Shown: positions 2,923 through 61,766, numbered from the stretch's first letter. The stretch: 64,000 nt of DNA from Escherichia coli (GCA_025336685.1 GCA_025336685.1_4717.1), one strand, 5' to 3'. Numbers and translations are program-made. Notes: generated by a model from the letters alone, not told the origin.

Positions 2923-2951
2923 CCTCCTCTGGGAATGGAACCCAGAGGAGG
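2923..2951. terminator. GC-rich hairpin (CCTCCTCTGGG / CCCAGAGGAGG, 11-bp stem, 7-nt loop)
   Basis: Perfect inverted repeat read directly; lies between convergent genes 1526..2770 (+) and 2964..3284 (-). No strong U-run, so terminator function is tentative. Confidence 0.4.
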
Positions 2952-2963
2952 ACTATGTTTGCT

Positions 2964-3284: not shown

Positions 3285-3331
3285 CGTTATACGTCGTTAG
3301 TATTATAATACGTTATAGTCTCCCTGCCGGT

Positions 3332-5584: not shown

Positions 5585-5596
5585 ATAAACTCCTCC

Positions 5597-5623
5597 GATG
5601 GAGGGTGCCGAGCACCCTCCATC
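5597..5623 (-). promoter_or_regulatory. stable hairpin (11-bp stem GATGGAGGGTG / CACCCTCCATC) abutting the terminase RBS
   Basis: Perfect inverted repeat; on the minus-strand transcript it sits directly 5' of the GGAGGAG SD of terL, between the 579 aa gene and terL. Confidence 0.4.
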
Positions 5624-5634
5624 GTTGTATTACC

Positions 5635-10893: not shown

Positions 10894-10974
10894 ATGTAAT
10901 TCCTTTATTACGGCATATAAGAAAACGGGTTAAGCACACAGATTTACGCATAATTGTAATTTTTTACGTTATGC

Positions 10975-11010
10975 CTATGACATTGTGTCACGTGTGCAAT
11001 TATGTCATAC
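10975..11010 (+). promoter_or_regulatory. inverted repeat TATGACAT-N18-ATGTCATA with central CACGTG, 27 nt upstream of sheath ATG
   Basis: Read directly in the divergent intergenic region 10894..11036. Confidence 0.3.
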
Positions 11011-11036
11011 AATTTCCTTAAATTAAGGAGAGTTCC

Positions 11037-21005: not shown

Positions 21006-21040
21006 GAGCAGGGGCATGAAGCCCCCTGCTCTTATTTAGC
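21006..21040 (-). terminator. hairpin terminator (GAGCAGGGGC ... GCCCCCTGCTC) with T-rich tail on minus strand
   Basis: Read directly; immediately downstream of the minus-strand gene 21032..22255. Confidence 0.5.
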
Positions 21041-22255: not shown

Positions 22256-22483
22256 ACCGCCTCCCGCTTACGCTCTCACGTAAGAGCAGACTATATCACA
22301 TCTCGTCTTAGGCTTGTTTTCACAAGTCAAACGGTGCTTCTTCAGCACCTCAACGAGAGTTCACTTCTTCCCAGCGCATCCAGCGCCATTCTCTTATCCA
22401 AGGAGAATGCCTCACTCGAGGGGTACAGGGGGATGAATCCCTTAGTCGTTGAACCGTCACCCTAGAACGTTTCACAACGATCC
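22256..22483 (-). ncRNA. structured non-coding region between HNH gene and beta-like fragment (possible group I intron 3' portion)
   Basis: 228 nt with stops in all frames of interest; on the minus-strand transcript at least four short hairpins (GGUGCU-GAAGAA-GCACC, CUUGU-GAAAA-ACAAG, CUUACG-UGAGAG-CGUAAG, CAUUCUC-N-GAGAAUG); catalytic-core elements not identified. Confidence 0.2.
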
Positions 22484-23695
22484 TTAGGCGATTGGCTGCG
22501 GATTACCCTTGGCCTGCGGACCACGAACTTTTGTCGCGGTCAACTCTTCATTTTTAAAGCCTGCTTTACGAGCAATACGTCTCGCTTCTCGCACGTCTAA
22601 CGTTTCCGTTTCCGCTTTGGCTGAAGGCAGCATTGGGCGTCCTCGCAATTCAATGAATCTCGTCCATACGTCACCGTATAAACGGACCCGCTCTTTGTAA
22701 ACAGAATAGTAAATATAACGTTTTCCGTCAGGGAATTTAGTCATCCCATCGGACTTCAAACGGTAATTGAGTAACGTAGTAGATATACCCATTTCTTCGG
22801 CGCAATCAACGGCTGAAAGGTACAATAGCGGTACATCATTTTCAGGAATGACGACAATAGCACGTTTGTTGGTTGTCTTCTCCAACTCCAGGATACTATC
22901 TTCGACTTCCCGCCACGGCGTCTCATCAGTAACCCATTTAACTTGATAACAGCCATTAACGACAGGTTGGTTCTTGTCGTTAACGTACATCGACGCAGTG
23001 GGTAACTTAACACCAATGTGATTAGCGAATTCAGTCAATGATTCGAAAAGATGAATCTCTTTTGTTATCGTTGACCTTGCAATCACGCCCTTACTCCCCG
23101 TATCCGTCAACGTTGCTAACTCGTATTTGGTAGGAATACGCCACGGTTCATCGCCGTAATCTTTGCGGTACTGCTTACGTTCAGGAAACGCTCGCTGTTT
23201 ACCTCTATAGACACGATGATGAATGAAGTCGATATTCACACCAAGATCGCGTGCCGCTTCCGTCATGGATGGATATCTAGTTACAACACCGGTGTCAACA
23301 TCACGAACCTGAATAGGTTTACCGTAAGCAGCAATAGAACGTTTACGCATGTTCATAATGCGGGCATGCTGATTGTTCTCTTTCTGTGTAACCCATTCAA
23401 GATTGTCATTCTCTGTGTTACCGTCGGGATCAAGGTAGTTATTAAGTCTGTTGCCGTCCTTGTGGTTCACATGGAGCAAATGCGCATCATCGATGTTACG
23501 GAACGTTAACATTAGAAGTCTATGCATGGAACGGTAAACCAATGTTCCATCGTGACCTCGAAACGAATAACGATAATACCCAGCAATGATGATGGGCAAA
23601 TATTCAAACTTCGATTCCTTGTTACGCAATGTTCCATCTATGGATATCTCCAGGAACGGGAATTCCGGTACGGTCTTAAATACCTTCTCACTCAT
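22484..23695 (-). CDS. HNH homing endonuclease with NUMOD/IENR-like DNA-binding repeats
   Basis: 403 aa; HNH motif HHVNHKDGNRLNNYLDPDGNTENDNLEWVTQKENNQHA; three helix-turn-helix-like repeats (YPSMTEAARDLGVN, FESLTEFANHIGVK, YLSAVDCAEEMGIS); AGAGGA SD; own promoter-like motif upstream. Confidence 0.85.
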   Translation of the reverse strand: MSEKVFKTVPEFPFLEISIDGTLRNKESKFEYLPIIIAGYYRYSFRGHDGTLVYRSMHRLLMLTFRNIDDAHLLHVNHKDGNRLNNYLDPDGNTENDNLEWVTQKENNQHARIMNMRKRSIAAYGKPIQVRDVDTGVVTRYPSMTEAARDLGVNIDFIHHRVYRGKQRAFPERKQYRKDYGDEPWRIPTKYELATLTDTGSKGVIARSTITKEIHLFESLTEFANHIGVKLPTASMYVNDKNQPVVNGCYQVKWVTDETPWREVEDSILELEKTTNKRAIVVIPENDVPLLYLSAVDCAEEMGISTTLLNYRLKSDGMTKFPDGKRYIYYSVYKERVRLYGDVWTRFIELRGRPMLPSAKAETETLDVREARRIARKAGFKNEELTATKVRGPQAKGNPQPIA

Positions 23696-23735
23696 TGACT
23701 ATATTCCTCTTGTGCAGTGATATTAACTACACTTT

Positions 23736-23744
23736 CGTAATATA
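23736..23744 (-). promoter_or_regulatory. promoter-like motif GGNCTATATTACC (copy 2)
   Basis: Exact CTATATTAC on minus strand about 40 nt upstream of the HNH ATG, in the 75-nt gap after the 1069 aa ORF. Confidence 0.35.
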
Positions 23745-23770
23745 GCCTTAATTCTGTTTACATTGAAGCC

Positions 23771-26700
23771 TTAATCATCTCTATCAGCAGCAGGTACTGC
23801 AAGTGCTGATGTACTCATTATTGACGAGCTACCATCCGTTTTCTCGTCGTAGGGTTTCGTTTCACCGTATACAGACACAATGTTTGCGTTAGGTGCGAGG
23901 TAAGCAGAAATACCTACATCCCCACTATCCTTCGTACCTTCGGATACAACACCAATGTCCGACTTGTCGTATTCACGATCGCGTGCGCGTCGAAGCGATG
24001 TCTTTGAACGCCCCCCGATACCGGTCATCGTTGCTTCTTCACCCTGCTTGATATCCAGCATCGGGTTGGTTTCATCGATCACGATGGAAGCGCTGTCGTC
24101 GAGAATTTGGTTCCAGACACTCACTGGACTGATTGAGATTTTCTGGCGGTTTCCTTGACTGCTGTTCTCGTTTTGACGAATAGCGCTAACCAGGTCCTTA
24201 TACACCAGTTCGGCGAACTTATCGTACGTTTTAAAACGTTGGTAGTTCACATCGTTCGTGTTAGGTGCCCAGTCATCCAGAAGCAGTTCAACAGCACGCA
24301 GTAACAACATGGCGAAATCGGTAGGTTCTCCCATGTTCTGTAGCAACGTACGGCTCACCGGATCGATGAAAAGACGCTCCATGAGTTCAAGTTCGCGTAA
24401 ATGGCGAACCTTAAGTCCAGCACCATCGACAACGTTAAAATAGATATCTCGATTGTCAAAAGCACCGCGAGCGTAACCGATGTAGTTACGGTACTCGTTG
24501 AACCCACCCAACAGCAACGTCGTCATGCGATCGTCTTTACTGAAGATCAAACTTTCGTCGTCAAAGCTCACCGCGAATTCATCGGGTGCTAGACCCATAC
24601 GAGAGCCGCGAGGTACCGTACGATAGTTCGCTTTAAGGTGTTCTAATAACGGGGTAAGCCCACCCAGATAACTTAGAACAACACCGACCGGAATACGTAC
24701 ACCCATGAATTCAAGATCGGCGGCTTCGATCGGCATCTTAGCCGCATTGATACCGAAGAAATCAGGGAACGTCCCTACAGGTGTTGGTGTTTGTCCTGAC
24801 TGACAGATATAGAGCTGATTGCGTTCATCGATTGCTAAGAATTCACCCAACGTGTTACGTGCAAACGTCAGGAGCCCTTCGGCTAACTGTTCGTTGAACC
24901 GATCTTCCCCAATGAACTCCGGCAATGTCTTTATATCGAGACGTATATCCCAATCAGCGAATTGGATTTGGGTATAGTTGCGTGCAAGCACTGCGAAGTA
25001 ATACGGGACTTTGACAGCCGGATCAAAGACGTTACCGCGTTTTAACGTGGTTAAGGGTGAGGACTTATCGTAATACATCGCCGTAAGTTGACGTGTTAGC
25101 CAACGACCCGCATTATTAACGACGCGCTCTGAACGTTTAACAAACACCTTACCGTAGGCGGTACTCAATGCAACTTCGGATGACGATACCTTTCTAATAG
25201 GTTTATCGACGCGTTGTTTACGCATCCGGTACTTGATGCCGTTAACGACATAAATGCCGTCCTTACGAACCTTCGGTAACATCACCGGGAACGTGGTCGG
25301 GACACCGCCTACGGGGGCCAGTTTAATCGTGATGACTTGATAATCCCCCATCACGTCAACAACATCTTCGACTTTATATCCCGTGACTGGGTAACCTGCC
25401 TGCTGTACCGCAACAACAGCAGCTGCGATGTCCTTTTGCATTACGTGTTCGACGTAATGTTTATCCCACACCGCAAGCGTCGATTTACATAAGCTCTTAT
25501 CGACGATAACGTCCGCTTCCGGCATAACCTTTGCGGGAGCTAATTTCGCGGCTTTTGGTTTAACTTCAACATACTCAGCAAGTGTTAATCCAGAACCGTC
25601 GGGTGCTTCGATTTCATGGATGGCGTCAGCGTTACGCATCGCTGCTTTATATTGGACGCCACTTAACTGCCCCGCATCCGCCAGATCGCCCGCGCGTACC
25701 AACACCGCATCCGATAACGACTGAATATACTCACCGTGTGTTTTTGGTAACGTTGTCGCGTCAAAGACATCAACCTTTTCTTCTTCGGTATCGTCAGTAA
25801 CGACTTCGAAGAGATCGTCGGTAATGTCCTGATCTTCATCAGGTTGGAAATCCGGTTGTACTTCTACCCCGGGTACTTCACGGACATCTTCGAACGTGCG
25901 TTCTACAACGGCGTTCCATGCATCAGCGTCATCGTCTTCATCCGACCCACCGACCAACTCCGCTTCTAACTCATCGGGGTCAAGAACAGTGGCCAGATCC
26001 TCACCGTTAGGAAGCACGACGTCACGATCGTCGTACTCCGCATCCGGGTTGTCGGTAAGAATATCTCGCTCTTGACGAAGAACCTGTTCCTCTTCTTGTT
26101 TCTGTTCTTCTTCATTCGCGCTCTGCGACCACAAACGTGTTACCGCCATCATCCAACGACGTTGGAAGGTTTCAAGTGTCGTTTTGTCGAGTTCTTCCCC
26201 TTCCTTTACAAGCCCGGTACGCCATTCCTCCAGCAGGCCGAGATTCAACGTAAAGAAGTACACACCGTCTGTAAATACAACGTTAAGCTTATCCAGCGTG
26301 GCCCTGTCTAACGAAGCCATCGTGCTGTTCTCACGATCGGTTCCCAACCAGCGGAAGAAGTCAAAGAACGACAGCTCCTCCGGTGTGGCGAAATTCATGA
26401 GGTTGTTACGGGTCGGTGCCTGTTGTGTGGTACGCATCAACGAAATCTTCGGCAATGTTGACGGTAAACGGAACAACAAAAAGTGTTGACGATCGCTTTG
26501 TTGTGCGATTTCGTTGGCTTTCGACCAAATTGTTTTACGTACGTTGAACCATTCATCATACCAACGGGTGAGCGTTGGACGATAGATGTACATGTGGTTA
26601 AGATGCGCGTAGTTAGCAACGATCTGAGCGTTGATGTTTTTCTCCACCGTACTTAGATCGGTAACCAAACGAAAACGACGATGCGATGCACGATAATCCA

Positions 26701-26980
26701 ATTTCGCTCGTGGAAGTTGGAATCGTTGATCGCGTCGAGGTGCGCCTTGTTTGGTTGCGAGATCATCAGCAAACGAAATCCATAGTTGAGCATTTTCTTT
26801 ACTCAGCATGTATTCGTTTTCTGGAGGACCTATCAATGAAGGATCCGTTGCGGTGTAATGATAGACAGCATAACGCGGCAGCTGCAATAGCTGCACTAAA
26901 CGTAATCTTGGTGATAGTAGCTCTTGGTAGCGTCTGACACCGAACTGTCGGTAGTAATCAAGGTATTTAAGTTTTGCCAT
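23771..26980 (-). CDS. putative RNA polymerase beta-like subunit, N-terminal fragment
   Basis: 1069 aa; by-eye matches to bacterial beta: [17 protein letters not shown] vs [33 protein letters not shown] vs [34 protein letters not shown] vs YGFLETPYRKVTDG near the C-terminus. Confidence 0.45.
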   Translation of the reverse strand: [1069 protein letters not shown]

Positions 26981-26983
26981 GGG

Positions 26984-28630
26984 TTAGGCTCCACGAGGTC
27001 CCGTTAAGTTGCGTAATAGGAACGCAACCGTATCGTAACCAATATCAATGTTGAATTTATTTTTACCACTTACCCAGAAAGCTCGCTTCTTGTGCGAGTT
27101 GGTAATTTCGTCAATGGCTTCCATGGAATAAAGAACGTTAACCGAGACCGTATCACCATCAAAGTCCCCGCCAAGTCCGGCGAGGTATGGGGCAGGGACA
27201 ATAGTCGTTTCTACGAACGAAGCATTAGGTAACCAGTCAGGGTATTCCCATGCGATAAATCGTTCATCCGTTATTGGTTCCCAGTTACTATCCAGTTCGG
27301 TTTTCGGTTTTGCGGCGACGGTTGTACGCGCATAACAGGTTAACGGGATAACGGATTGCATACCCGATACCGGATAACGTGTTACCATTGCAGCCAGGTT
27401 ATTCCAGTACTTATATCCGGCGATGTACACTAATTCGGTATACGTGATGGGGTGAACATCCGCACCAGGTTTATTCAACATTTCTGGGGGTAATTCACTC
27501 ATACCACGGAACAGTCGAAACGAATCATTGTTCACATAGACGAGGCAAAGATAACGTCCATTAACCATGATAGGTTCGTTACGCACGCCTGGATCGCTTA
27601 AGGTGTTCAATAAACGTTCTATTCCGTCCCATGTCGTAAAGTCATCGATGGTGTCTGGATCAAGCGTGACGCGTTCACGTTCCATCGTTTCGGTATCGAT
27701 AAGTTCAACTTCTGTAACATCACGGACAAATATTTCCTGCAAAATCCCCGTACGTAACGCATGTTGCGTCACGGGTAGGGCGGCTTTGCTCATCTGGTAT
27801 AACCCTAACTGAACTGCAGTACAGGAAGGCTGGTTGGGCGATCCTAGTACCTCCGTTGTGGGGTTAATTGCCGAAATAACGTTACGGGTTGAGTTCCAAA
27901 CACGACGTGAGCCGAACTTCCCTTGAAAGATCCCTTTCTTACCTTGGAACATATCCAACAACAAAGCGTAGATATCGTTAAATGTTCTCTGTAAGCTCCA
28001 GCGTTGGCCGTCGTAAACGGGATCGGAATAATCTTTTAATCCATCGGGGACGGTGTTAGAAATTGCAAGGAAACGACGATACAACTCCGTGATTTCTTGC
28101 TCGCTTTCATACCCGCCTTCTTTTACTTCTATTTCACGTAAGCCCGCAGGTAAAACCAGTAAGTGACGGGTCATCGCTTTGAACATGTTCTCTTCGACAA
28201 CTTTAATTCGTAGCTCTCGTTGAGCTGAACCCGTTGAAACGAACTTGATATCCGCGACGTGTTGTGCAAAGAACCCGTACCCTGTCTGTCCTGTTAACGC
28301 ATCAGACGCAACGAAATCGCGTTGTTCAGGATCCCACCGAGCGTACGCCTTCCCCGACATGATATCACCATAGAGGTGTTTTAATCGAATGAGGCGGTCG
28401 TAAATGACAGGATGCAGGATTTCAACTTTGCATTCAATCACCGCAAATCGACGGTCTCGATCTTCACTACCTGCACTACCAAAGATGGTGTAAGAATAGA
28501 AACCATCATCGTGGAAATTACCGGTGCTTGGGTCACGAATGCTCATGCTCGTGATCTTGGGGAGAAAACGTAACTGTTGTTTATCGAGGTGTAAAATACT
28601 AATATTAAACGGCTCTCTGACTTTAGCCAT
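26984..28630 (-). CDS. RNA polymerase beta'-like subunit, N-terminal fragment
   Basis: Catalytic motif GDFDGDTVSVNV (beta' NADFDGDQMAVHV) near C-terminus; QGKFGSRRVWNSTRNVISAINP resembles beta' GKRVDYSGRSVIVVGP; ORF track starts at 28672 but ATG at 28630 has an AGAGGAG SD. Confidence 0.65.
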   Translation of the reverse strand: MAKVREPFNISILHLDKQQLRFLPKITSMSIRDPSTGNFHDDGFYSYTIFGSAGSEDRDRRFAVIECKVEILHPVIYDRLIRLKHLYGDIMSGKAYARWDPEQRDFVASDALTGQTGYGFFAQHVADIKFVSTGSAQRELRIKVVEENMFKAMTRHLLVLPAGLREIEVKEGGYESEQEITELYRRFLAISNTVPDGLKDYSDPVYDGQRWSLQRTFNDIYALLLDMFQGKKGIFQGKFGSRRVWNSTRNVISAINPTTEVLGSPNQPSCTAVQLGLYQMSKAALPVTQHALRTGILQEIFVRDVTEVELIDTETMERERVTLDPDTIDDFTTWDGIERLLNTLSDPGVRNEPIMVNGRYLCLVYVNNDSFRLFRGMSELPPEMLNKPGADVHPITYTELVYIAGYKYWNNLAAMVTRYPVSGMQSVIPLTCYARTTVAAKPKTELDSNWEPITDERFIAWEYPDWLPNASFVETTIVPAPYLAGLGGDFDGDTVSVNVLYSMEAIDEITNSHKKRAFWVSGKNKFNIDIGYDTVAFLLRNLTGPRGA

Positions 28631-50600: not shown

Positions 50601-50640
50601 CCCTCCTCCTTCCCATGTTGGGTTGGAGGAGGGTTATGCC
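50601..50640 (+). terminator. hairpin (CCCTCCTCC / GGAGGAGGG, loop TTCCCATGTTGGGTT) after plus gene
   Basis: Read directly; paralog of 37741..37772. Confidence 0.5.
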
Positions 50641-50647
50641 GTCAAGC

Positions 50648-50695
50648 AAAAAAAAAAAAAATGATAGCCACGGACCCTCCAATGAAGGAGGGTCG
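50648..50695 (-). terminator. intrinsic terminator for minus strand (hairpin GACCCTCC / GGAGGGTC followed by T14)
   Basis: A14 run at 50648..50661 on plus strand is a T14 on the minus strand directly 3' of the hairpin, downstream of gene 50707..51411. Confidence 0.7.
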
Positions 50696-53282: not shown

Positions 53283-54104
53283 ATGGAAAAAGTATTTGTT
53301 TGTAAGCTGTTTACTAACGGCAATAGCCAACCAATGTATCTGACCGATCCGGTTCTGGGTAATCGGAACAGTACTGTATTCAAAGAAGCTATCGAATACG
53401 CTAAAAATAAAGCCGTGAGAACACTGACGTCCGATGACTGTATCAATGGTATCACGTGGGCAGAGTTATTAGGTGATGCTGTTAGACACTTCGTTCGGGA
53501 TGCAAGAAAACAGGAAATCAGCCTCACGACCATTGTCGTGCGCGAAAACGCAGAAATTTTATCAAACGTTTTAGTTGATTTTAATGACGTTTACGTGTTT
53601 AATCCAGAGAACACTTTTGAACAATACCTTGCCGCCCTGAACAAACAGCTCGGTAAAGATGTTCATCCCGAATTCGCCAAGTTAACGTATCAAGTACTTT
53701 TTGACGACGTCGATCCGAATACGAAGATCAGCACCCGCTTAAACTGCCAGATAAAGAAATACGGATCGGTTCTTGCTACAGCGACACCTACCATCGATGG
53801 CGGTTATGATATCGAATTGGATTCTCCATTAAAAGAACAAGAACCTACTGGGGTTCGGGCAATACATCATACCCTCGTCGTTAAATCCGATGGTTGTGAT
53901 GAACATTACGCTATGACAAACGATGAAAATAATCACCGTTTAAGTCAAGCGATCGGTGTTCTACGTTATACCGAACCAACCACTGTAGACGATTATACTT
54001 CGACAACAACGCACACCACGTGTTTCATTTTCATTTATCCAAATGAAAGTGTGTACATTACTGACTGCTACGGCAACACGGTAGATAGCTTACGTCGTTA
54101 TTAA
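53283..54104 (+). CDS. hypothetical protein (273 aa)
   Basis: ORF track; followed by a textbook terminator. Confidence 0.5.
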   Translation: MEKVFVCKLFTNGNSQPMYLTDPVLGNRNSTVFKEAIEYAKNKAVRTLTSDDCINGITWAELLGDAVRHFVRDARKQEISLTTIVVRENAEILSNVLVDFNDVYVFNPENTFEQYLAALNKQLGKDVHPEFAKLTYQVLFDDVDPNTKISTRLNCQIKKYGSVLATATPTIDGGYDIELDSPLKEQEPTGVRAIHHTLVVKSDGCDEHYAMTNDENNHRLSQAIGVLRYTEPTTVDDYTSTTTHTTCFIFIYPNESVYITDCYGNTVDSLRRY

Positions 54105-54110
54105 TCATGG

Positions 54111-54140
54111 AGCCTGTCCTTCGGGGCAGGCTTTTATGCT
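54111..54140 (+). terminator. rho-independent terminator (9-bp stem, UUCG tetraloop, then TTTTATGCTGTT)
   Basis: AGCCTGTCC-TTCG-GGGCAGGCT followed by a T-run, 7 nt after the stop codon. Confidence 0.8.
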
Positions 54141-54206
54141 GTTAAATATCAGGAATAAGAATTAACAAAATAGGAAAATGGTGTGAATATAACACAAAGG
54201 AGGGAG

Positions 54207-54329
54207 ATGATTATGTTACTCATTCTAATGGAGAGAGCATTGCTGGCGGGTATATGCGCATTCTCTGTTAAACACGCTGTTGCTATCATGACTGAAGAAA
54301 GGCGTAATACGCATAATGTATTACGCTGA
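54207..54329 (+). CDS. small hydrophobic ORF (40 aa), candidate small membrane peptide
   Basis: AGGAGG 3 nt before ATG at 54207 (in-frame ATG also at 54213); MIMLLILMERALLAGICAFSV...; 9-bp inverted repeat GCGTAATAC/GTATTACGC at its 3' end. Short, so tentative. Confidence 0.25.
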   Translation: MIMLLILMERALLAGICAFSVKHAVAIMTEERRNTHNVLR

Positions 54330-54334
54330 AAACA

Positions 54335-54748
54335 ATGTCTGCATTAGTGTATGACGAGAAATCGTCGAGGCCCCCGTCTTCACGAGGGCCAACACCTATG
54401 CGCGACTATTTACCATCTACGAAACAAAGGGTTATAAACATGAGCAATTTGAATGTTGAATTTACTTCAACAACGCCCGTCATGAATGGCGTTGGTACTG
54501 AAACTAAGATCGTATTAGAACCCATCCCGGGGTTACGTGATCTCGGTGATTTTTACCAACTGATGCCACGTATACGTAACGCCTTAAACAGTATCGATCT
54601 TGATTCTGATAAAGATTTCCAACACGATACAGAAAATACCGATCATGTGTTGCTACCATCAGGGATCGGAAAATTCACCTACACGCAAACATTGAAAGCC
54701 TCCGATGGTGAAATCCGTCGTTTTATTGTTGAAGTAGAAAGCGCATAA
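54335..54748 (+). CDS. hypothetical protein (137 aa)
   Basis: ORF track; followed by hairpin 54753..54784. Confidence 0.45.
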   Translation: MSALVYDEKSSRPPSSRGPTPMRDYLPSTKQRVINMSNLNVEFTSTTPVMNGVGTETKIVLEPIPGLRDLGDFYQLMPRIRNALNSIDLDSDKDFQHDTENTDHVLLPSGIGKFTYTQTLKASDGEIRRFIVEVESA

Positions 54749-54752
54749 AAAC

Positions 54753-54784
54753 CATCCTCCCAACCCGTAAGGGAAGGGAGGATG
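54753..54784. terminator. hairpin (CATCCTCCC ... GGGAGGATG with inner CCC-GTAA-GGG) between convergent genes
   Basis: Read directly; T5 on the minus-strand side. Confidence 0.5.
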
Positions 54785-54801
54785 AAATATGCCGTTATAT
54801 G

Positions 54802-55443
54802 TTATTCAACAAATCCCGCGTTCAACAAATTGTCGTAAACACGATTAGCGACATCAACAGGAGAATGTGTGTTACTGGTGTCTATACACAACGTTTTCGC
54901 GTCGCCGAGATAGTCCATAAAATCCATGTAACGATAACGTCGTTTATTGAATGTCGCTTCATCGATGTTATCAAACATCTGATGTTTAGCGTGTCGAACA
55001 CGGAATCGCCTTAAATACGTAGGATAGTCAATATCCAGATAAACGTAGTAAGACGGCATGATAATCGACGGTAGGTTCGGCAACAACGCATCAAACAGCT
55101 TAACGTTGGCATCATTAACCTGATAAACGTACGTCGAAGCAATCGAACGATCGCTAAGCACAGTCTTCCCTTCGTTAAGGGCTGGATGAATCACCTTATT
55201 GAAGAGATGATTACGTTGCGACATCATCGCCAACAGTTCAGTTTCTGGATCGAATCTGTTCGTTGGCGTCTGATCTTCCAGGATAAGTTTACGAATCGCT
55301 TCTCCGTAGAGTGTACCACCGGGTTCACGTACGACGCAGACGTTGTTTAAACGACTGTGTAAAGACGAGATAACCGAACTCTTTCCTGAATAATCCAGAC
55401 CTTCAATAACGATATATTTATTACGAGACATTCCCCGCTCCAA
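54802..55443 (-). CDS. tmk: thymidylate kinase (dTMP kinase)
   Basis: P-loop KYIVIEGLDYSGKSS, REPGGT motif and DRSIAST segment, collinear with bacterial Tmk; likely start is the internal Met (MSRNKY). Confidence 0.85.
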   Translation of the reverse strand: MERGMSRNKYIVIEGLDYSGKSSVISSLHSRLNNVCVVREPGGTLYGEAIRKLILEDQTPTNRFDPETELLAMMSQRNHLFNKVIHPALNEGKTVLSDRSIASTYVYQVNDANVKLFDALLPNLPSIIMPSYYVYLDIDYPTYLRRFRVRHAKHQMFDNIDEATFNKRRYRYMDFMDYLGDAKTLCIDTSNTHSPVDVANRVYDNLLNAGFVE

Positions 55444-55447
55444 TTAA

Positions 55448-56629
55448 CTATTTCGTTTTCGCCGTCAACGGTTGCGATACCGTAATCTCGACACGATTCT
55501 CATCGGTACGTTTAACGATGATAAGGCTGCGTTCATCACCGAATGGTGCTGCTACCTCGGAAGCCTCTTTAAGATTTTCAAGAATCTCACCGAAAGCTTC
55601 AAATACCGCAAAACCAGAGCTAACATCAATTCTTACTAAATGTACACACACATCGTTTACGGTAACGGTGTCATCCGTCTTGAACCCGCAACAGGAGGGT
55701 AGACAGAACTGACCGTCAGCGCAATTAGCTAGGCATGCCTCGCCACCGAACATTTCTATTAACGTCACCGGTTTAAATGTTTTCTCTGGGAAAGCGCTAT
55801 TAAGGGTATCGTTTCCATTCACGAACCAGATCGTTACTTTATCTTCAGAATACACCAGCCGGTACGGTTGGGTTGCGGACGCTTGCGCTTTATGCTGGTT
55901 AAATAACTTTGATTTTGTCGCAATCACAGCACGACCTTCGGCGTCGAAGTACAGAACTTCATACCCAACACATCCGATAAACACACGACGGTTATTAAGT
56001 TCCGGAATTCTGACTAATAATGCTTCACCGTTGTATCCGGTAGGAACAATACCACGTAGGATGATAGATTCATTGTTCAATACCGAGTTGTCTGCAGTGA
56101 TACTTCGCATTACCGCTGGCGTCACTATTTTATCTGCGGTAGGTTCAGGTTGCTCAGCAATGCGGTCAAAAGGTTCGATGGATACCATGGGAACGAAGTA
56201 TTCAACTATATACTTGTTTTCAGCACCAACGTCCATGACGGTGATCTGCAAACGCGTAGCATCCGAATTCAATGCTTGTCTCACACGTTCCGCATTAGGA
56301 GTATCGCGGTCAATATGAATCAAGGCTTTTACCACACCGTCGTCTTCCAACCATCCTGTTAAAACGCGACCGACGATATCATTCACGTCACGAATCGGGA
56401 AGCACACTTCAGCGCCATCGAGCACCGCTACGATTTTACTGCTAATGACGGGCACCTTACCGTCGTTAAGATGTGCCAACAGACCGGTTAATGCATCTTC
56501 ACTAACCGGATATTTTGTCGTCGTACTGACCACCGGTATGATAAAACGATCTTCGCCGTATTTCTCTGCACCACAGATAACCGGGACTTGAGGACATTGA
56601 TCAACTAGGCCCCATTCAACAGTAATCAT
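55448..56629 (-). CDS. hypothetical protein (393 aa), Cys-rich C-terminal region
   Basis: ORF track; sits between RuvC-like and tmk genes. Confidence 0.5.
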   Translation of the reverse strand: MITVEWGLVDQCPQVPVICGAEKYGEDRFIIPVVSTTTKYPVSEDALTGLLAHLNDGKVPVISSKIVAVLDGAEVCFPIRDVNDIVGRVLTGWLEDDGVVKALIHIDRDTPNAERVRQALNSDATRLQITVMDVGAENKYIVEYFVPMVSIEPFDRIAEQPEPTADKIVTPAVMRSITADNSVLNNESIILRGIVPTGYNGEALLVRIPELNNRRVFIGCVGYEVLYFDAEGRAVIATKSKLFNQHKAQASATQPYRLVYSEDKVTIWFVNGNDTLNSAFPEKTFKPVTLIEMFGGEACLANCADGQFCLPSCCGFKTDDTVTVNDVCVHLVRIDVSSGFAVFEAFGEILENLKEASEVAAPFGDERSLIIVKRTDENRVEITVSQPLTAKTK

Positions 56630-56661
56630 AACGTTTTCCTTCTTGGGTTTTGTACATGTTG

Positions 56662-57303
56662 CTAACGGCGTTTTGTACCGACCTTCCCATTTCGATGGTC
56701 ATCAAGAATACGCCATTCTTCGAACAGGAGTTCAGCTGCGAAATAACCTACGGCGATGCTGTCTATCGCATGCTCATCAAGATTCGCTAACACAACACCG
56801 TTTCTGGGTGTGATGTTCATGAGGTTCAACACTTTCTGGCGAACATCGTCCTTACCGACACGTGACGTCATGATCCCAACGGCGCGTTTTGCGCTTCGGT
56901 TATCAACCCCTAAGAAAGACACCGTAGGGTCAAAATCGATAACCGTTGTCTGAATCGCTGAAAACAGCTCGCTGAGCGCCATACCGCTTTGCTTGAAACG
57001 ACCGATAAACGGTGTTTCACAAGCGACCGCCTGCGGTTGGTACTCTTGCAATAACGACGTCAGCGAACGACGGTGTTCTTGGATACGTGCGGCACGGTTA
57101 CCGTATCCAAGAGCAATATCACCATCAGGATCATATCGGCGTGAGGCGTGCCATGTCCCCGCATAAAGCAGTTCAATATCTTCGACACGCACGTCCAAAC
57201 GCAGTAACGACGCACCGAGTGTATCGGTGCCGGGGTCGATTGCCAGAATATCGTAAGCGTATTCTGGTGGGATCATGGTGTTACAACAGCCTCTACCGAC
57301 CAC
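56662..57303 (-). CDS. RuvC-like Holliday junction resolvase
   Basis: ILAIDPGTDTLG (RuvC ILGIDPGSRVTG), ACETPF (AIEQVF), KRAVGIMTSRVGKDDVRQKV (KQTVVGIGSAEKSQVQHMV), DEHAIDSIAVG (DAADALAIA); probable start at the second Met. Confidence 0.7.
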   Translation of the reverse strand: MVGRGCCNTMIPPEYAYDILAIDPGTDTLGASLLRLDVRVEDIELLYAGTWHASRRYDPDGDIALGYGNRAARIQEHRRSLTSLLQEYQPQAVACETPFIGRFKQSGMALSELFSAIQTTVIDFDPTVSFLGVDNRSAKRAVGIMTSRVGKDDVRQKVLNLMNITPRNGVVLANLDEHAIDSIAVGYFAAELLFEEWRILDDHRNGKVGTKRR

Positions 57304-58088
57304 GGGAAGGTTTTCGCAATAACGCCTTCCAGGAAGCGTTCAACTTCGGCTTGCTCATACACCGAAAGCTTTTCAAACGGCGTTTGGTCCTCGGTTAAAC
57401 CCACCGCATGAATGGGACCCAGATCTTTAACCAGGGTAACTTCACCTTTAACGCCTTCACGTTTAACGATAACCGCGTGGTCATTAACCTTAGGATCATA
57501 CAACACACGCATCATGGTTACCGCGTCATCCGGCTCATAACCGAAATCGATCGCAACGCGAGCACTCGTCCCTTCTTCATCCAAGAGCTTGCTCAACGCT
57601 TTACAGCGGTCTTCAATCCAATCCAACGCAACCACGGTTTCTTGGCGTAGCTGAACCTCAACCTCTTTTCCTTGTTCATCGATACGTTTCACGGTAACAA
57701 AATCACGCAATAAGCGGTCAGGAAGAAGGGAAGCGATAAGTTCAACGTTGGGTTCGGGTTTATCGTTTTCCAGGATGATGGTCGCTTGTGCGTCCAGATG
57801 TTCTTTAAAACGGATGTAACGTGTTAATCGCAGAACTTCATCCTGGGATTTTGCGTCTTCGGGAATAATCTCCGTCATGACGTTATAAATCTTTTCAGCG
57901 AACGTTGGAATTACGGTGATTGTAATTCGTGCTGGTGTACCACGCTCCTGGTACTCATCGGCTAACTTCTTTGCCATCCCGTTAAAGTAGGTCTGGAGAA
58001 ACGGTTGTTGGGTTAAAAACATTTTTTCCAGATCGGAATAGCGATGCTTGCGCGCGTGGCCTAGCTTCTTCATGGGCTTTTTCATCAA
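57273..58088 (-). CDS. hypothetical protein (271 aa)
   Basis: ORF track; between SbcC-like and RuvC-like genes, overlapping the latter by about 30 nt. Confidence 0.5.
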   Translation of the reverse strand: MMKKPMKKLGHARKHRYSDLEKMFLTQQPFLQTYFNGMAKKLADEYQERGTPARITITVIPTFAEKIYNVMTEIIPEDAKSQDEVLRLTRYIRFKEHLDAQATIILENDKPEPNVELIASLLPDRLLRDFVTVKRIDEQGKEVEVQLRQETVVALDWIEDRCKALSKLLDEEGTSARVAIDFGYEPDDAVTMMRVLYDPKVNDHAVIVKREGVKGEVTLVKDLGPIHAVGLTEDQTPFEKLSVYEQAEVERFLEGVIAKTFPWSVEAVVTP

Positions 58089-58106
58089 CAGAAATCCTTA
58101 TTTATC

Positions 58107-60626
58107 TTAAATAATCGTGACATGTTCGTTATACGTTTCAGGGAGAATGATGTTCGTTTTGTCGAGAACCATACACTCGGCTTTACGGAATGATGCGTGA
58201 TTGATAACATAGTGGCTGATGAACCACACTTGGCTTACACGGTGACCATCGACCAAACGACGAACAAAATCCATGGCATTAGATTGGTGCTGCGGATCAA
58301 ATGTTGATGCGAATTCATCCAGCATCAAGGGATAATCCGTAAACCCTTTGTAATGCATCATCGCGATGATAAACGCGATATTGATAATTTCCTTTTGCCC
58401 CTTACTCCCATAAACAATATCTTTTCGCGGTGTCGGATACTTCTCGGTTAGCAGCGGGAAACGATAATTCAATCCTTGCGCATCGATAGCACAAGGGAGT
58501 ATCTGAAGTTGGTATTCCCAAATACTCGCAATGATACCGTTCATGTATTCGACGAACGCGTTGATTGGACCAGCAATTGTTTCAGCAATCAGGCCGTTAG
58601 ATGGACTTAACTCATCCAGAACAAGTTGTGTGTAACTGAGTTGTTCTTCCACCTCTTTTTGCGTTGTTTCCAGCTGAGCCAAAAGCTGTTGGTCGGTTTT
58701 AGCTTCCTGTAACTGCTGTTCGACATGACTTATTCGTCGAACCGTATCAGACATCGCAGCGCGTAATGATTTCGTGTAGAGGTGTTGCAGATACTCCAAC
58801 CACAGTTGTGTTAACGCTTTATCGCTACTATCAGAACGCACCTGGTCTTCCATAATCGCCGTAATGGTTTCCAATCTACCTTCCGTTGCTGTGATGGCTT
58901 GGGTCAATCGTTCAACGGTCGTTAGCAACTCCGTCCTGTTCTTATAAAGCAGTTCTCGGCGTTGCTGTAATGGTTCAACATCAACAGCTTGTACACGTTC
59001 GAGCATGCCTTGAAGATGCTTCCGTTCTTGTTCGGCTTGGGTGTAACGCGCAAGCTTCTCAAATGCGAGCAGCCAATCATTAATGATTCCAATACTGCGA
59101 AACCCTAATCCGTTTTTACGTCCTTCTTCCAGCAGATTGTCCCACATGGGTTTAATGGCGTAATAATCTTTCGTCCAACGTGTTAACTGACGATGCTGCT
59201 CCATCCAAAGCGTATAACGCTGAACCTTCTCACTCAGCTCAGCTAACGATTTCTCTTGTTCTTCAACCCAAGCACGGCCCTTCTGAATACGTTGTTCGAT
59301 GCTTGCTTTGCTGGTCTTTTCTGTCTCACCAACATGAAAGCGATAATTGCATTTTGGGCAGCTGGTCTGGGGTTGATGGTTAAGGTGGTCAAGATGCGCT
59401 TCCAAGTCAGCTAACGCATGTTTCGCGTTACGCAAACGCATTCGTGCCGCCTCTTCCTCCTTGATGTAAGCTTCAGCATCGTAAACATGATAGGTGTTGT
59501 CGGTATCAATCCATTCTTGCAATAGTTCCGTTAACGGAGCCTGAACTTGCGTGAGCTGTTGTAAACAAACCGCGGCGTCCAGATTCATCGTTAAAAGCTC
59601 ACCTGGATGATCATGCTGGAGTTGTTCGTCCAAACGGGCAAGGCGGGCTTTAATCTGATCGATATCGCCTTCTCCAGACTGTTTCAACTGGTCAAGGATA
59701 TTATCGATACCCAACAGCTCGTCAACCTGACTTTCGAGTTTCGCATTCGCATTCGCGAGTTGCTCTCTTAGTTCAGCCAGATTCCGCTGTTCTTGTTGCG
59801 ATGTTCCTCCTTGGTAACGAACAACTGCACGAAGAAGCTCGCGATTAAAATGATGGGCACGTTGTGTGGATTCCAGAAGCTGTCGTTGATCGACATCGCT
59901 ATCGAATAACGGCAATCCCATCATCGCTTCGAGCGCTGAGCGTTGCTGCTTTAACTCTGCTTCCAATCCCTGGTGGTCGGTTCCAGTGTATTTCGCTTCA
60001 ATTCGCTGTGACGTTTCAACCAACTTATTCAATGTATGCTCATTCACCGCTTTCAGTGAACGTACTTGTTGCTTAACCACCTGAAACAACTCAAGCGCAT
60101 AATCGACGTTAACCGGACATATCTGTGTTAATCGTTCGCGTCGTTTCATCGGTCCCATTTCGGTGAACTGGTAAGCTGTTTCGTAACCTAACAACAAACG
60201 AATGGTGTCGTCATTAAGTTCGAAATGTTCTTCGATCAGTTTCCACTGGGCTGGTTGTGTACCACCACCGTTCAGGTTCTCGCTGTCGTTAACGTAGAAC
60301 TCGTGCTTAAACCCTTTTTCTAAACGACTGATAAGACGGTATTGCTTATTACGGTGTTCGCAGCGGTACTCGTAATACCCATCTTTATCAAAATCGGCGC
60401 GCTCGGGAACGGTTGGATACAGCAAAGGCAGTAGACTACTCTTACCCGAACCGTTACTACCTAAAATGAGTTGTACGGGATTATCTGGCCGGATGACCAG
60501 CTCCCGAATCATCCCGGTATCAAAACGATTGAATCCACGTAAGTGGAGATAGGTGCATCGCATGCTATGATAATCCTTCTTCGATACCTTCTGAACCCGT
60601 GGTTCAGAATGCGAAGCTGAAGCCAT
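58107..60626 (-). CDS. SbcC/Rad50-like SMC-family ATPase
   Basis: 839 aa; N-terminal Walker A LILGSNGSGKSS; long Gln/Glu/Leu-rich coiled-coil; central CPKC zinc-hook-like motif; C-terminal Walker B PLMLDEF and following ISHY. Confidence 0.7.
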   Translation of the reverse strand: MASASHSEPRVQKVSKKDYHSMRCTYLHLRGFNRFDTGMIRELVIRPDNPVQLILGSNGSGKSSLLPLLYPTVPERADFDKDGYYEYRCEHRNKQYRLISRLEKGFKHEFYVNDSENLNGGGTQPAQWKLIEEHFELNDDTIRLLLGYETAYQFTEMGPMKRRERLTQICPVNVDYALELFQVVKQQVRSLKAVNEHTLNKLVETSQRIEAKYTGTDHQGLEAELKQQRSALEAMMGLPLFDSDVDQRQLLESTQRAHHFNRELLRAVVRYQGGTSQQEQRNLAELREQLANANAKLESQVDELLGIDNILDQLKQSGEGDIDQIKARLARLDEQLQHDHPGELLTMNLDAAVCLQQLTQVQAPLTELLQEWIDTDNTYHVYDAEAYIKEEEAARMRLRNAKHALADLEAHLDHLNHQPQTSCPKCNYRFHVGETEKTSKASIEQRIQKGRAWVEEQEKSLAELSEKVQRYTLWMEQHRQLTRWTKDYYAIKPMWDNLLEEGRKNGLGFRSIGIINDWLLAFEKLARYTQAEQERKHLQGMLERVQAVDVEPLQQRRELLYKNRTELLTTVERLTQAITATEGRLETITAIMEDQVRSDSSDKALTQLWLEYLQHLYTKSLRAAMSDTVRRISHVEQQLQEAKTDQQLLAQLETTQKEVEEQLSYTQLVLDELSPSNGLIAETIAGPINAFVEYMNGIIASIWEYQLQILPCAIDAQGLNYRFPLLTEKYPTPRKDIVYGSKGQKEIINIAFIIAMMHYKGFTDYPLMLDEFASTFDPQHQSNAMDFVRRLVDGHRVSQVWFISHYVINHASFRKAECMVLDKTNIILPETYNEHVTII

Positions 60627-60677
60627 ACTTCAGCGTTATTTTCTATATCGTTATTTAAATCAGTAGGAGATTACAGC

Positions 60678-61766
60678 ATGAGCGATCTGGCAACAGACAA
60701 TCGCACAAAAGGGAGTCAGTTAGCTCCAGACAGCAACGTAAGCGTTTTCCGTATCTTTGCCTTGGGTACCGTTGCTGCCGACTTTTCCAATAAAAGTCTG
60801 GAGGAAGATCCTAACCAGGCGCTGGAGGTCTTTCTTGACGAGATGATGTCAGGTGCTGACGGGAAAGTTGAAGCGGCGGGAAGCGTGAAAGAAGTTAGTG
60901 CAACAGACGCTCAAGGGAACAGCTATACGGCAAAAGCGGCAACAACAACCAGCGTGCAGTGTTACTGGTTACCCTTTGGTAGTAATCGGATGACAGCGCC
61001 TAACTTGAGGAAAGGTCAGCGTGTGGTGGTCTGGCGTACTGCCGATGAAGAACAACTCTATTGGCAGCCCAAAGGAGGGGATAGTGAGCTGATGACCATG
61101 GAATCGGTTATCCTCACCGTCAGTGCACGTCCTAGCGCTAAGAAGGACCGTAAATCGATTTCAACGGAAGACTGCTATTACCTAATGGTTGATACCTTTC
61201 TTAAGAAAGCGGTTATCGGTACAAGCGCACAGCTTGGTGAAGTTACCCAAGTCTACATGGAACTTAATCTGGACGAGGGTTACTTACAGGTTGCGGACAG
61301 CGTCCATCAAAACCTACTATTGCTCCATTTTGTCGAGCATATGCTGCGATACCAAAACCAGGACGACAGCATTATCGACGTAACAAAAAAGAACATCACA
61401 TTCCAATGCGAGGATACGCTCAAAGCAATCGCTAAGAACGATATCCGAATGAAAGCAAAAAATATTTATACGGAATGTGAGAACTTTGAACGTACCAGCA
61501 AAACAGAAAGCGTTACGAGTCAGAATGTTTCTTTGAAATGCGATCGCTACACCGCGCAAGTATCAGGACAAACCATATTCAAATGTCCGAATACGGTATT
61601 CACCGGAGCCGTGAGTTTCACTGGTGAAGACGGAAACACGATGACATTGAACGGTAACTTCATACACGTCGCGGGATCTTGGCGTTCACCAAGCGGAACA
61701 AACGTATACACTCACGACCACGGTGGCGTTAAATCCGGTAGTAGTAGAACCGACCCGTTTCAATAA
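60678..61766 (+). CDS. hypothetical protein (362 aa)
   Basis: Lone plus-strand ORF followed by a strong bidirectional terminator. Confidence 0.5.
   Translation: MSDLATDNRTKGSQLAPDSNVSVFRIFALGTVAADFSNKSLEEDPNQALEVFLDEMMSGADGKVEAAGSVKEVSATDAQGNSYTAKAATTTSVQCYWLPFGSNRMTAPNLRKGQRVVVWRTADEEQLYWQPKGGDSELMTMESVILTVSARPSAKKDRKSISTEDCYYLMVDTFLKKAVIGTSAQLGEVTQVYMELNLDEGYLQVADSVHQNLLLLHFVEHMLRYQNQDDSIIDVTKKNITFQCEDTLKAIAKNDIRMKAKNIYTECENFERTSKTESVTSQNVSLKCDRYTAQVSGQTIFKCPNTVFTGAVSFTGEDGNTMTLNGNFIHVAGSWRSPSGTNVYTHDHGGVKSGSSRTDPFQ

What the first reader, a model, noticed from the sequence alone, without database searches (positions are those of the whole stretch)
54802..60626. Recombination and nucleotide module: SbcC/Rad50-like, RuvC-like, tmk and two unknowns, no recognisable SbcD/Mre11 partner
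The Rad50-like ATPase normally pairs with an Mre11/SbcD phosphoesterase, but neither adjacent ORF (271 aa and 393 aa) shows phosphoesterase motifs. Either the partner is elsewhere, or one of these unknowns is a non-canonical nuclease partner. The RuvC-like resolvase in the same operon supports a recombination-dependent replication role.
Basis: partly seen in the sequence, partly recalled or inferred. Interest (0 to 1): 0.5.

Follow-up and report, generated by a model that had tools for sequence, protein, structure and literature searches.

The report
Jumbo-phage SbcC gene; partner encoded elsewhere
This stretch of a Goslar-like nucleus-forming jumbo phage carries a Rad50/SbcC-type ATPase, a RuvC-type resolvase and a thymidylate kinase, and the "missing" Mre11/SbcD nuclease lies about 80 kb away in the same genome, a split already described for phiKZ-like phages, so the finding is ordinary.

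Summary
The five minus-strand genes exist as described, and neither unknown ORF has phosphoesterase motifs.

The window is 93-95% identical to Escherichia phage Goslar, a nucleus-forming jumbo phage (Chimalliviridae). The SbcC-like ATPase, the RuvC-like resolvase and the dTMP kinase are three published core genes of that family. In phiKZ and RAY they lie far apart, so the "module" is a Goslar-group juxtaposition.

The partner nuclease exists. Goslar gp178 (core gene cg8, = phiKZ gp065) matches the PHROG SbcD family at E 1.8e-40. A profile of its family hits only Mre11/SbcD structures in the PDB. Motifs I, II, IV and V are invariant. It lies about 22 kb before the window start. Thomas et al. 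2016 already stated that SbcC and SbcD genes are "drastically separated" in phiKZ-like phages.

The 271-aa protein is confined to Goslar-like phages, has no conserved histidine and shows no nuclease fold. It does sit between SbcC-like and RuvC-like genes in three diverged lineages.

The 393-aa protein has an N-terminal domain that resembles a prohead protease in fold but lacks the catalytic residues. This slot in the gene order is variable.

Verdict: observation right, the "non-canonical nuclease partner" idea unsupported, low novelty.

The parts
58107..60563 (-). SbcC/Rad50-like SMC-type ABC ATPase, 818 aa from the conserved start. The open frame runs on to 60626. It is the orthologue of Goslar gp012, phiKZ gp165, RAY gp023 and SPN3US gp186, i.e. 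Chimalliviridae core gene cg44.
   Evidence: phrog_77 E 7.8e-75 and Pfam SMC_N 6.4e-10. It is 99% identical to Goslar gp012, and 287 phage records match it, all those listed being jumbo phages. An alignment with six relatives shows these invariant features, in 839-aa ORF numbering (subtract 21 for the 818-aa protein): Walker A G56-S64, Q127, zinc hook C423-P-x-C426, S741, Walker B D770-E771 and H805. The shared start is M22. Core-gene table in Prichard 2023.
57273..58085 (-). 270/271-aa protein of unknown function, restricted to Goslar-like phages (= Goslar gp011). It lies 21 nt after the SbcC-like stop codon, and its own stop overlaps the RuvC-like start (ATGA).
56662..57276 (-). RuvC-like Holliday-junction resolvase, 204 aa (= Goslar gp010, phiKZ gp140, RAY gp012; core gene cg40).
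   Evidence: PF02075 at 26 bits against a cut-off of 22.2, and phrog_159 at 2e-21. Invariant D14, E87, D167-E168-H169 and D172 in three diverged lineages. Core-gene table.
55448..56629 (-). 393-aa protein of unknown function (= Goslar gp009). The N-terminal domain of about 140 aa has a prohead-protease-like fold. The C-terminal part of about 230 aa is well conserved and was not predicted confidently.
54802..55431 (-). Thymidylate (dTMP) kinase, 209 aa (= Goslar gp008, phiKZ gp188, RAY gp311; core gene cg32).
   Evidence: PF02223 E 9.6e-28 and phrog_761 2.1e-36. Core-gene table. The RAY homologue and others localise to the cytoplasm.
60678..61766 (+). Baseplate spike protein gene (= Goslar gp013, core gene cg43), transcribed divergently from the SbcC-like gene. 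It is the only neighbour of the SbcC-like gene that is conserved across the family.
   Evidence: phrog_3216 at 2.7e-61. The same head-to-head pair occurs in phiKZ, Noxifer, RAY, Eowyn, L011 and L012. Goslar gp13 is the baseplate spike in the cryo-EM structure.

Best explanation
The region is an ordinary piece of a Goslar-like chimallivirus genome. It holds three family core genes: an SbcC/Rad50-like ATPase, a RuvC-like resolvase and a dTMP kinase. Two genes found only in Goslar-like phages are interleaved with them.

The SbcC-like ATPase is not orphaned. Its Mre11/SbcD-type nuclease subunit is encoded at a distant locus: Goslar gp178, core gene cg8, equivalent to phiKZ gp065 and, by position and annotation, SPN3US gp27. 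This locus falls just outside the window.

Inferred mechanism, from the SbcCD, Mre11-Rad50 and T4 gp46/gp47 paradigm:
1. Two SbcC-like chains join through the CPxC zinc hook at the apex of their long intervening region.
2. Their ATPase heads bind a dimer of the SbcD-like phosphoesterase.
3. The complex trims DNA ends and hairpins.
4. This feeds the phage UvsX recombinase for recombination-dependent replication and repair.
5. The RuvC-like enzyme cuts the resulting branched DNA before packaging.
6. The dTMP kinase supplies dTDP from the cytoplasm.

Shown here: homology, motif conservation, gene positions, and presence of both subunits in the same genomes. Taken from papers: essentiality of both subunits in phiKZ and SPN3US. 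Inferred: complex formation and the individual steps.
For: - The window is collinear with Goslar at 93-95% identity.
- gp178 matches phrog_100 'SbcD-like subunit' at E 1.8e-40 over residues 7-368.
- A 37-sequence profile of the gp178 family hits 17 PDB sequences, all Mre11/SbcD; the best is T. maritima 2q8u at 7e-9.
- D20-x-H22, G56-D57-x-x-D60, H100-D101, H172 and G209-H210-x-H212 are invariant.
- It is the only such gene in Goslar's 237 kb.
- The same assemblies carry both the SbcD-like gene and the gp009 homologue.
- The SbcC-like protein keeps all ATPase motifs and the zinc hook.
- Prichard 2023 Table S3 lists cg8, cg32, cg40 and cg44 as core genes at scattered positions.
- Thomas 2016 states that SbcC and SbcD genes are 'drastically separated' in SPN3US, phiKZ and relatives, and that SbcC is essential.
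- Iyer 2021 calls the pair practically universal in jumbo phages.
- phiKZ gp165 and gp065 both scored in an antisense knock-down screen, and orf165 tolerates no transposon insertions.
Against: - The SbcD-like gene itself is not in the window. Its presence in this exact genome is inferred from Goslar and from other Goslar-like genomes.
- Pfam Metallophos matches gp178 only weakly (E 0.04), NCBIfam gives nothing, and a single-sequence PDB search gives nothing. The assignment therefore rests on profiles and motifs.
- Motif III of the family reads G-T-P/x-S/x-H-D instead of G-N-H-D/E, so the usual metal-binding Asn is absent. Nuclease activity is untested.
- No data here show that gp012 and gp178 bind each other.
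Confidence: 0.85

Rival explanations
1. The 271-aa protein (gp011 family) is a lineage-specific accessory factor. It would bind or regulate the SbcC-like/SbcD-like complex or the RuvC-like resolvase without being a nuclease, in the way that accessory subunits such as Nbs1/Xrs2 decorate a core Mre11-Rad50 complex.
For: In three lineages only 43-50% identical to each other, the order SbcC-like, then the 271-aa homologue, then RuvC-like is kept. The stop codon overlaps the RuvC-like start (ATGA), which suggests coupled translation. The gap after the SbcC-like gene is only 21 nt. The protein is strongly conserved within the Goslar clade: one 90% cluster holds 302 members. It is expressed.
Against: It is absent from all other chimalliviruses at sequence level, although they carry the same SbcC-like, SbcD-like and RuvC-like core genes. 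In phiKZ, Noxifer, RAY and Eowyn the gene after SbcC-like is different or lies on the other strand. hhalign finds no relation to RAY gp24. Gene adjacency in jumbo phages often carries no functional meaning. No fold or motif points to DNA or protein binding.
Confidence: 0.12
2. One of the two unknown proteins is a non-canonical nuclease that replaces Mre11/SbcD as the catalytic partner of the SbcC-like ATPase.
For: Only the adjacency to the SbcC-like gene, plus the general precedent that SMC-like ATPases of defence systems pair with unrelated nucleases. The SbcC-like protein gives weak PADLOC hits to LmuB and others.
Against: A genuine SbcD homologue is present and is a core gene. The 271-aa family has no conserved His or Cys and only scattered acidic residues, and no nuclease fold. 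The 393-aa gene is missing or replaced by a 163-aa gene in related lineages that keep the SbcC-like gene. The only fold signal for the 393-aa protein is protease-like.
Confidence: 0.02
3. The chimallivirus SbcC-like protein works mainly as a DNA-tethering or genome-organising SMC-like ATPase inside the phage nucleus. The SbcD-like protein, with its altered motif III, would be a structural rather than catalytic partner.
For: Motif III lacks the canonical Asn in all 37 family members examined. The two genes have been kept apart throughout the family. The region between the ATPase halves is about 300 residues longer than in T4 gp46.
Against: All other metal-binding and catalytic residues are invariant: D20, H22, D57, H100, H172, H210 and H212. 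Such conservation would be unexpected in a dead enzyme. The SbcD-like protein is needed in phiKZ. Nothing here tests activity.
Confidence: 0.06

Closest known systems
SbcC and SbcD of phiKZ-related jumbo phages (SPN3US gp186 and gp27; phiKZ gp165 and gp065; Chimalliviridae core genes cg44 and cg8)
   Same: Direct orthologues. The window protein is 99% identical to Goslar gp012 and 23-27% identical over more than 90% of its length to phiKZ gp165 and others. It has the same divergent pairing with the baseplate spike gene. The SbcD gene is likewise at a distant locus.
   Different: In the Goslar group, the RuvC-like and tmk core genes have moved next to the SbcC-like gene, and two group-specific genes (271 aa and 393 aa) are interleaved.
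E. coli SbcCD, T. maritima and P. furiosus Mre11-Rad50, and T4 gp46/gp47
   Same: Split ABC ATPase head with Walker A, Q-loop, signature, Walker B and H-loop motifs, plus a central CxxC zinc hook. The partner has calcineurin-type phosphoesterase motifs I, II, IV and V, and profile matches to solved Mre11/SbcD structures.
   Different: The genes are not in one operon. In E. coli sbcD precedes sbcC, and in T4 genes 46 and 47 are clustered. Sequence similarity is too low for BLASTP. Motif III of the nuclease lacks the Asn.
RuvC crossover junction endodeoxyribonuclease (PF02075)
   Same: Pfam score above the gathering threshold and conserved acidic and His catalytic positions.
   Different: Very divergent: NCBIfam equivalog scores are far below cut-off. 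There are no RuvA or RuvB partners in the region.
T4 gp21 prohead protease and herpesvirus assemblin fold, compared with the N-domain of the 393-aa protein only
   Different: 6% identity. No Pfam protease family at E<=1. No invariant His or Ser. No relation to Goslar's own head protease by hhalign. The overall model is poor (pLDDT 47).

Membership tests
Rad50/SbcC SMC-like ABC ATPase (window 58107-60563) | N-terminal Walker A and Q-loop; C-terminal signature motif, Walker B, D-loop and H-loop | tested here: met
   GSNGSGKSS, Q127, S741-x-G-Q, D770-E771, D777 and H805 (839-aa ORF numbering) are invariant in 7 diverged chimallivirus proteins. phrog_77 at 7.8e-75 and SMC_N at 6.4e-10.
Rad50/SbcC SMC-like ABC ATPase (window 58107-60563) | Central CxxC zinc hook between the two ATPase halves | tested here: met
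   C423-P424-x-C426 is invariant, at the middle of the roughly 600-residue intervening region. NCBIfam Rad50_Sulf aligns weakly at 390-504.
Rad50/SbcC SMC-like ABC ATPase (window 58107-60563) | Long antiparallel coiled coil formed by the intervening region | not tested
   No coiled-coil prediction or structure model was run for this protein.
Rad50/SbcC SMC-like ABC ATPase (window 58107-60563) | An Mre11/SbcD phosphoesterase partner encoded in the same genome | tested here: met
   Met in Goslar (gp178) and in other Goslar-like assemblies. Not directly testable for the window's own genome, because the locus lies outside the 64 kb.
Rad50/SbcC SMC-like ABC ATPase (window 58107-60563) | Physical complex with the nuclease and ATP-dependent nuclease activity | not testable with these tools
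   Needs biochemistry or a multimer model.
Mre11/SbcD phosphoesterase (candidates: window 271-aa and 393-aa proteins) | Five calcineurin-type motifs: D-x-H, G-D-x-x-D, G-N-H-D/E, H, G-H-x-H | tested here: not met
   None of the motifs occurs in either protein, and there is no conserved His in the 271-aa family. No Metallophos hit at E<=1. The SbcD-like HMM gives no hit in the window. The folds are unrelated.
Mre11/SbcD phosphoesterase (candidate: Goslar gp178, outside the window) | Five calcineurin-type motifs | tested here: inconclusive
   Motifs I, II, IV and V, and the H-D of motif III, are invariant in 37 sequences. The Asn of motif III is replaced: the family reads G-T-P-S-H-D, and Goslar reads G-T-N-L-H-D.
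Mre11/SbcD phosphoesterase (candidate: Goslar gp178, outside the window) | Significant profile similarity to characterised Mre11/SbcD proteins | tested here: met
   phrog_100 at E 1.8e-40. The family profile hits 17 PDB sequences, all Mre11/SbcD, best 7e-9. Pfam Metallophos reaches only E 0.04.
RuvC resolvase (window 56662-57276) | RNase H-like fold family match and catalytic carboxylates (D, E, D/H, D) | tested here: met
   PF02075 at 26.0 bits against a cut-off of 22.2. phrog_159 at 2e-21. D14, E87, H169 and D172 are invariant.
Thymidylate kinase (window 54802-55431) | Pfam PF02223 above threshold with a P-loop | tested here: met
   97.6 bits against a cut-off of 27. P-loop GLDYSGKSS is present.
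Prohead protease / assemblin (N-domain of the 393-aa protein) | Shared fold | tested here: inconclusive
Prohead protease / assemblin (N-domain of the 393-aa protein) | Conserved catalytic His and Ser | tested here: not met
   No invariant His or Ser among residues 1-150 in 20 homologues. No protease Pfam family.

The most novel reading that the evidence does not exclude
The 271-aa protein is kept between the SbcC-like and RuvC-like genes in three diverged Goslar-like lineages and is translationally coupled to the resolvase gene. It could be a new, lineage-specific accessory subunit that links end-processing (SbcC-like/SbcD-like) to junction resolution (RuvC-like) inside the phage nucleus.
Probability: 0.1. 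Interest if true: 0.4.

Novelty: already known. Interest (0 to 1): 0.12.

Why it matters
It matters little beyond correct annotation. The apparent orphan Rad50-like ATPase comes from looking at 64 kb of a roughly 237-kb genome whose functionally linked genes are scattered, as already published for phiKZ-like phages.

Three by-products may be useful.
- Goslar gp178, still labelled 'hypothetical protein' in RefSeq, is the SbcD/Mre11 subunit.
- Its family carries an unusual motif III.
- gp011 and gp009 are expressed Goslar-group genes of unknown function, and could be tested cheaply in the tractable E. coli/Goslar system.

Tried and rejected
1. Sequence families for the two unknowns. Pfam, PHROGs, NCBIfam and PADLOC gave nothing. 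The one sub-threshold Pfam hit of the 271-aa protein (Ad_Cy_reg, E 6e-4) was not reproduced in its homologues, so I treat it as chance.

2. Remote homologues of the 271-aa protein. The word-indexed search found 3 hits, the full HMMER scan of 1.84 billion representatives found 4, and tblastn of 50,697 phage records found only Goslar.

4. Structure route for the 393-aa protein. The model is poor (pLDDT 47), and only the N-domain could be interpreted.

5. Relation of the 271-aa family to RAY gp24, the gene after SbcC-like in RAY. hhalign probability was 0.1%.

6. Relation of the 393-aa family to Goslar's own head protease. None found.

7. Goslar gp157, a 185-aa Metallophos_2 protein, as a possible SbcD. 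It belongs to phrog_547 'phosphoesterase', is too short, and does not match the SbcD-like profile.

8. Exact look-up of the window's 393-aa protein to find the source genome. It is not on record.

9. Sigma-70 promoter and intrinsic terminator scan of 53-62 kb. Counts are at or below the shuffled expectation, and chimalliviruses use their own RNA polymerases, so the scan says nothing about operon structure.

10. Rfam scan of the window. No family reached gathering score.


Full report
**What is there.** The stated interval holds five consecutive minus-strand ORFs.

| Window coordinates | Size | Assignment | Evidence |
|---|---|---|---|
| 58107-60626 | 839-aa ORF | SbcC/Rad50-like | phrog_77 E 7.8e-75; Pfam SMC_N 6.4e-10 |
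| 57273-58088 | 271 aa | unknown | no family |
| 56662-57303 | 213-aa ORF | RuvC-like | PF02075, 26 bits vs cut-off 22.2; phrog_159 2e-21 |
| 55448-56629 | 393 aa | unknown | no family |
| 54802-55443 | 213-aa ORF | thymidylate kinase | PF02223 E 9.6e-28 |

Neither unknown ORF matched any family in NCBIfam or PADLOC either. Neither carries any of the five phosphoesterase motifs.

Gene starts need small corrections, from alignments and the Goslar annotation:
- SbcC-like starts at 60563 (818 aa).
- The 271-aa gene starts at 58085 (270 aa).
- RuvC-like starts at 57276 (204 aa).
- tmk starts at 55431 (209 aa).

The stop codon of the 271-aa gene overlaps the RuvC-like start as ATGA.

**Where the window comes from.** Window 54000-61000 is 93.8% identical to Escherichia phage vB_EcoM_Goslar, a 237-kb nucleus-forming jumbo phage. 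The whole window is collinear with Goslar 186,181-237,305 followed by 1-12,537. The five genes are Goslar gp012, gp011, gp010, gp009 and gp008.

**Family context.** Prichard et al. 2023 (Table S3) list three of the five as Chimalliviridae core genes.

| Core gene | Function | Goslar | phiKZ | RAY |
|---|---|---|---|---|
| cg44 | SbcC-like | gp012 | gp165 | gp023 |
| cg40 | RuvC-like | gp010 | gp140 | gp012 |
| cg32 | thymidylate kinase | gp008 | gp188 | gp311 |

In phiKZ and RAY these three genes are far apart. In phiKZ, Noxifer, RAY and Eowyn the only conserved neighbour of the SbcC-like gene is the divergently transcribed baseplate spike gene, and what follows it differs in each phage. The "recombination and nucleotide module" is thus a juxtaposition peculiar to the Goslar group. 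Thymidylate kinase homologues localise to the cytoplasm, whereas DNA-processing enzymes are inside the phage nucleus. This further weakens the idea of one functional unit.

**The partner nuclease.** The core list also holds cg8, a "putative nuclease" (Goslar gp178 = phiKZ gp065 = RAY gp238). RefSeq labels Goslar gp178 (162,609-163,751, 380 aa) as hypothetical.

Evidence that it is the SbcD/Mre11 subunit:
- Pfam Metallophos aligns end to end but only at E 0.04.
- Single-sequence searches of NCBIfam and the PDB find nothing.
- I collected 138 homologues, some already carrying PF00149 or JGI's name "SbcCD nuclease subunit", and aligned 37 of them.
- A search of the PDB with that profile gave 17 matches, all Mre11 or SbcD. 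They include T. maritima 2q8u at 7e-9, P. furiosus Mre11 and E. coli SbcD.
- Invariant residues reproduce motifs I (D20-x-H22), II (G56-D57-x-x-D60), IV (H172) and V (G209-H210-x-H212).
- Motif III is G-T-P/x-S/x-H-D. It keeps the His-Asp but lacks the usual Asn.
- The same profile, run with filters off against every ORF of at least 60 aa in the window and in the whole Goslar genome, hits gp178 alone (1e-133) and nothing in the window.

The gene lies about 22 kb before the window start and about 81 kb from the SbcC-like gene. Its 90% cluster has 254 members on contigs of about 235-243 kb. Several of these assemblies also carry the gp009 homologue, as shown by the shared locus-tag prefixes ZJ33, ACI5OW and AB9A94.

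**This is already published.** Thomas et al. 2016 (PMC5105663) identified SPN3US gp186 as SbcC (essential) and gp27 as SbcD. [quoted passage not shown] Iyer et al. 2021 call the SbcC/SbcD pair practically universal in jumbo phages. phiKZ gp165 and gp065 both scored in an antisense screen for needed proteins. orf165 tolerates no transposon insertions.

**The SbcC-like protein itself.** I aligned it with six chimallivirus orthologues at 23-50% identity. In 839-aa ORF numbering, the alignment shows invariant Walker A, Q127, a central C423-P-x-C426 zinc hook, S741 of the signature motif, D770-E771 and H805. It is a genuine Rad50/SbcC-type ATPase.

**The 271-aa protein.**
- It is confined to Goslar-like phages: 3 hits in the word-indexed search, 4 in the exhaustive HMMER scan of 1.84 billion representatives, and only Goslar among phage records.
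- Two homologues at about 45% identity sit in the same place in diverged lineages. The order there is baseplate spike (opposite strand), SbcC-like, 271-like, RuvC-like, a variable slot, then tmk.
- The AlphaFold2 model is moderate (pLDDT 72). It consists of helix-plus-three-strand modules.
- The family has no conserved His or Cys.
- It is not a phosphoesterase, and nothing suggests a nuclease.
- Its conserved position and the ATGA overlap with the RuvC-like gene leave open an accessory role. I rate that at about 0.1.

**The 393-aa protein.**
- It has 183 homologues. Those whose source is given lie on phage-sized contigs of about 235-248 kb or on short contigs, or are Goslar itself.
- The slot between the RuvC-like gene and tmk is empty in L011. 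In L012 it holds a 163-aa gene. That gene is homologous to residues 6-139 only (hhalign E 2.2e-5).
- The model is poor overall (pLDDT 47), but residues about 20-130 are at 75-85.
- No His or Ser is invariant in that domain, and no protease family matches. It looks like a protease-like fold without the catalytic pair.
- The N-domain occurs as two very different alleles, 92-95% or 27-32% identical to the window's. The C-terminal part stays 77-97% identical.
- Nothing links this protein to DNA end processing.

**Expression.** The supplementary mass-spectrometry table of a 2026 Goslar virion study lists peptides from gp008, gp009, gp011, gp012 and gp178. Their abundance is low, similar to that of other non-structural proteins. 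One gp011 peptide, DLGPIHAVGLTEDQTPFEK, is identical in the window protein.

**Most likely mechanism.** The SbcC-like ATPase and the distantly encoded SbcD-like nuclease form the phage's Mre11-Rad50-type complex. It processes DNA ends and hairpins for UvsX-dependent recombination and replication. The RuvC-like enzyme resolves branched intermediates, and the kinase feeds dTTP synthesis. Homology, motifs, gene positions and co-occurrence are shown here. Essentiality comes from the cited papers. Complex formation and the individual steps are inferred from the SbcCD and T4 gp46/gp47 paradigm.

**Verdict.** The reading "partner elsewhere" is correct. The "non-canonical nuclease partner" reading is not supported. 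The feature is already known for this phage family, so interest is low.

Noticed in passing
window 22170-23804 (ORF 22484-23695, minus strand); flanking ORFs 21032-22255 and 23771-26980: A 1.6-kb segment absent from Goslar carries a 403-aa HNH/NUMOD1/I-TevI-type homing endonuclease (NUMOD1 E 2.5e-8). It sits inside the region that in Goslar is one 4.3-kb virion RNA polymerase gene (207,224-211,570), which here is split into two ORFs. No Rfam intron reached threshold.
   Followed up: partly
window 27157-27165, versus Goslar 211,748-213,798: Goslar's annotated group I intron plus its neighbouring gene (similar to phiKZ ORF179) is missing from the window. The two phages therefore differ by presence or absence of mobile elements around the RNA polymerase genes.
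   Followed up: no
window 50608-50661: The window runs straight across the two ends of the linear Goslar record. About 54 bases match both Goslar 237,252-237,305 and 1-54. The deposited ends are therefore not physical ends in this relative, or there is a short terminal repeat.
   Followed up: no
homologues of window 55448-56629 and of Goslar gp178 (P0008, P0013, P0033, P0090, P0103, P0246-P0250 and others): Near-complete Goslar-like genomes (contigs of 235-248 kb) occur in many public assemblies labelled Escherichia coli, Salmonella enterica, Shigella flexneri and Shigella sonnei. This suggests that the phage is often carried along with, or contaminates, sequenced isolates.
   Followed up: no
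window 56150-56629 (N-terminal ~160 aa of the 393-aa protein): The N-terminal domain exists as two alleles among otherwise close relatives: 92-95% or 27-32% identity to the window's, while the rest of the protein stays 77-97% identical. This mosaic pattern is typical of domain swapping or diversifying selection. One genome with the identical 270-aa neighbour carries the other allele (L024, 408 aa).
   Followed up: partly
Goslar gp178 (L006:22609-23751, minus strand) and its family, alignment A2: The chimallivirus SbcD-like family has an invariant motif III of the form E-G-T-P-S-H-D-x-x-Q. The metal-binding Asn of the canonical G-N-H-D/E is absent in all 37 sequences examined. RefSeq still calls the Goslar protein hypothetical.
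   Followed up: partly
window 60564-60677, and the same junction in L002-L005, L011 and L012: The head-to-head pairing of the baseplate spike gene and the SbcC-like gene is kept across phiKZ, Noxifer, RAY, Eowyn and the Goslar-like lineages, although almost everything else around the SbcC-like gene changes.
   Followed up: no
Goslar gp011 (orthologue of window 57273-58085): In the published mass spectrometry of a virion preparation, gp011 is detected at an estimated abundance close to that of a packaged virion RNA polymerase subunit (gp205). The cytoplasmic dTMP kinase is at a similar level, so this may simply be carry-over.
   Followed up: no
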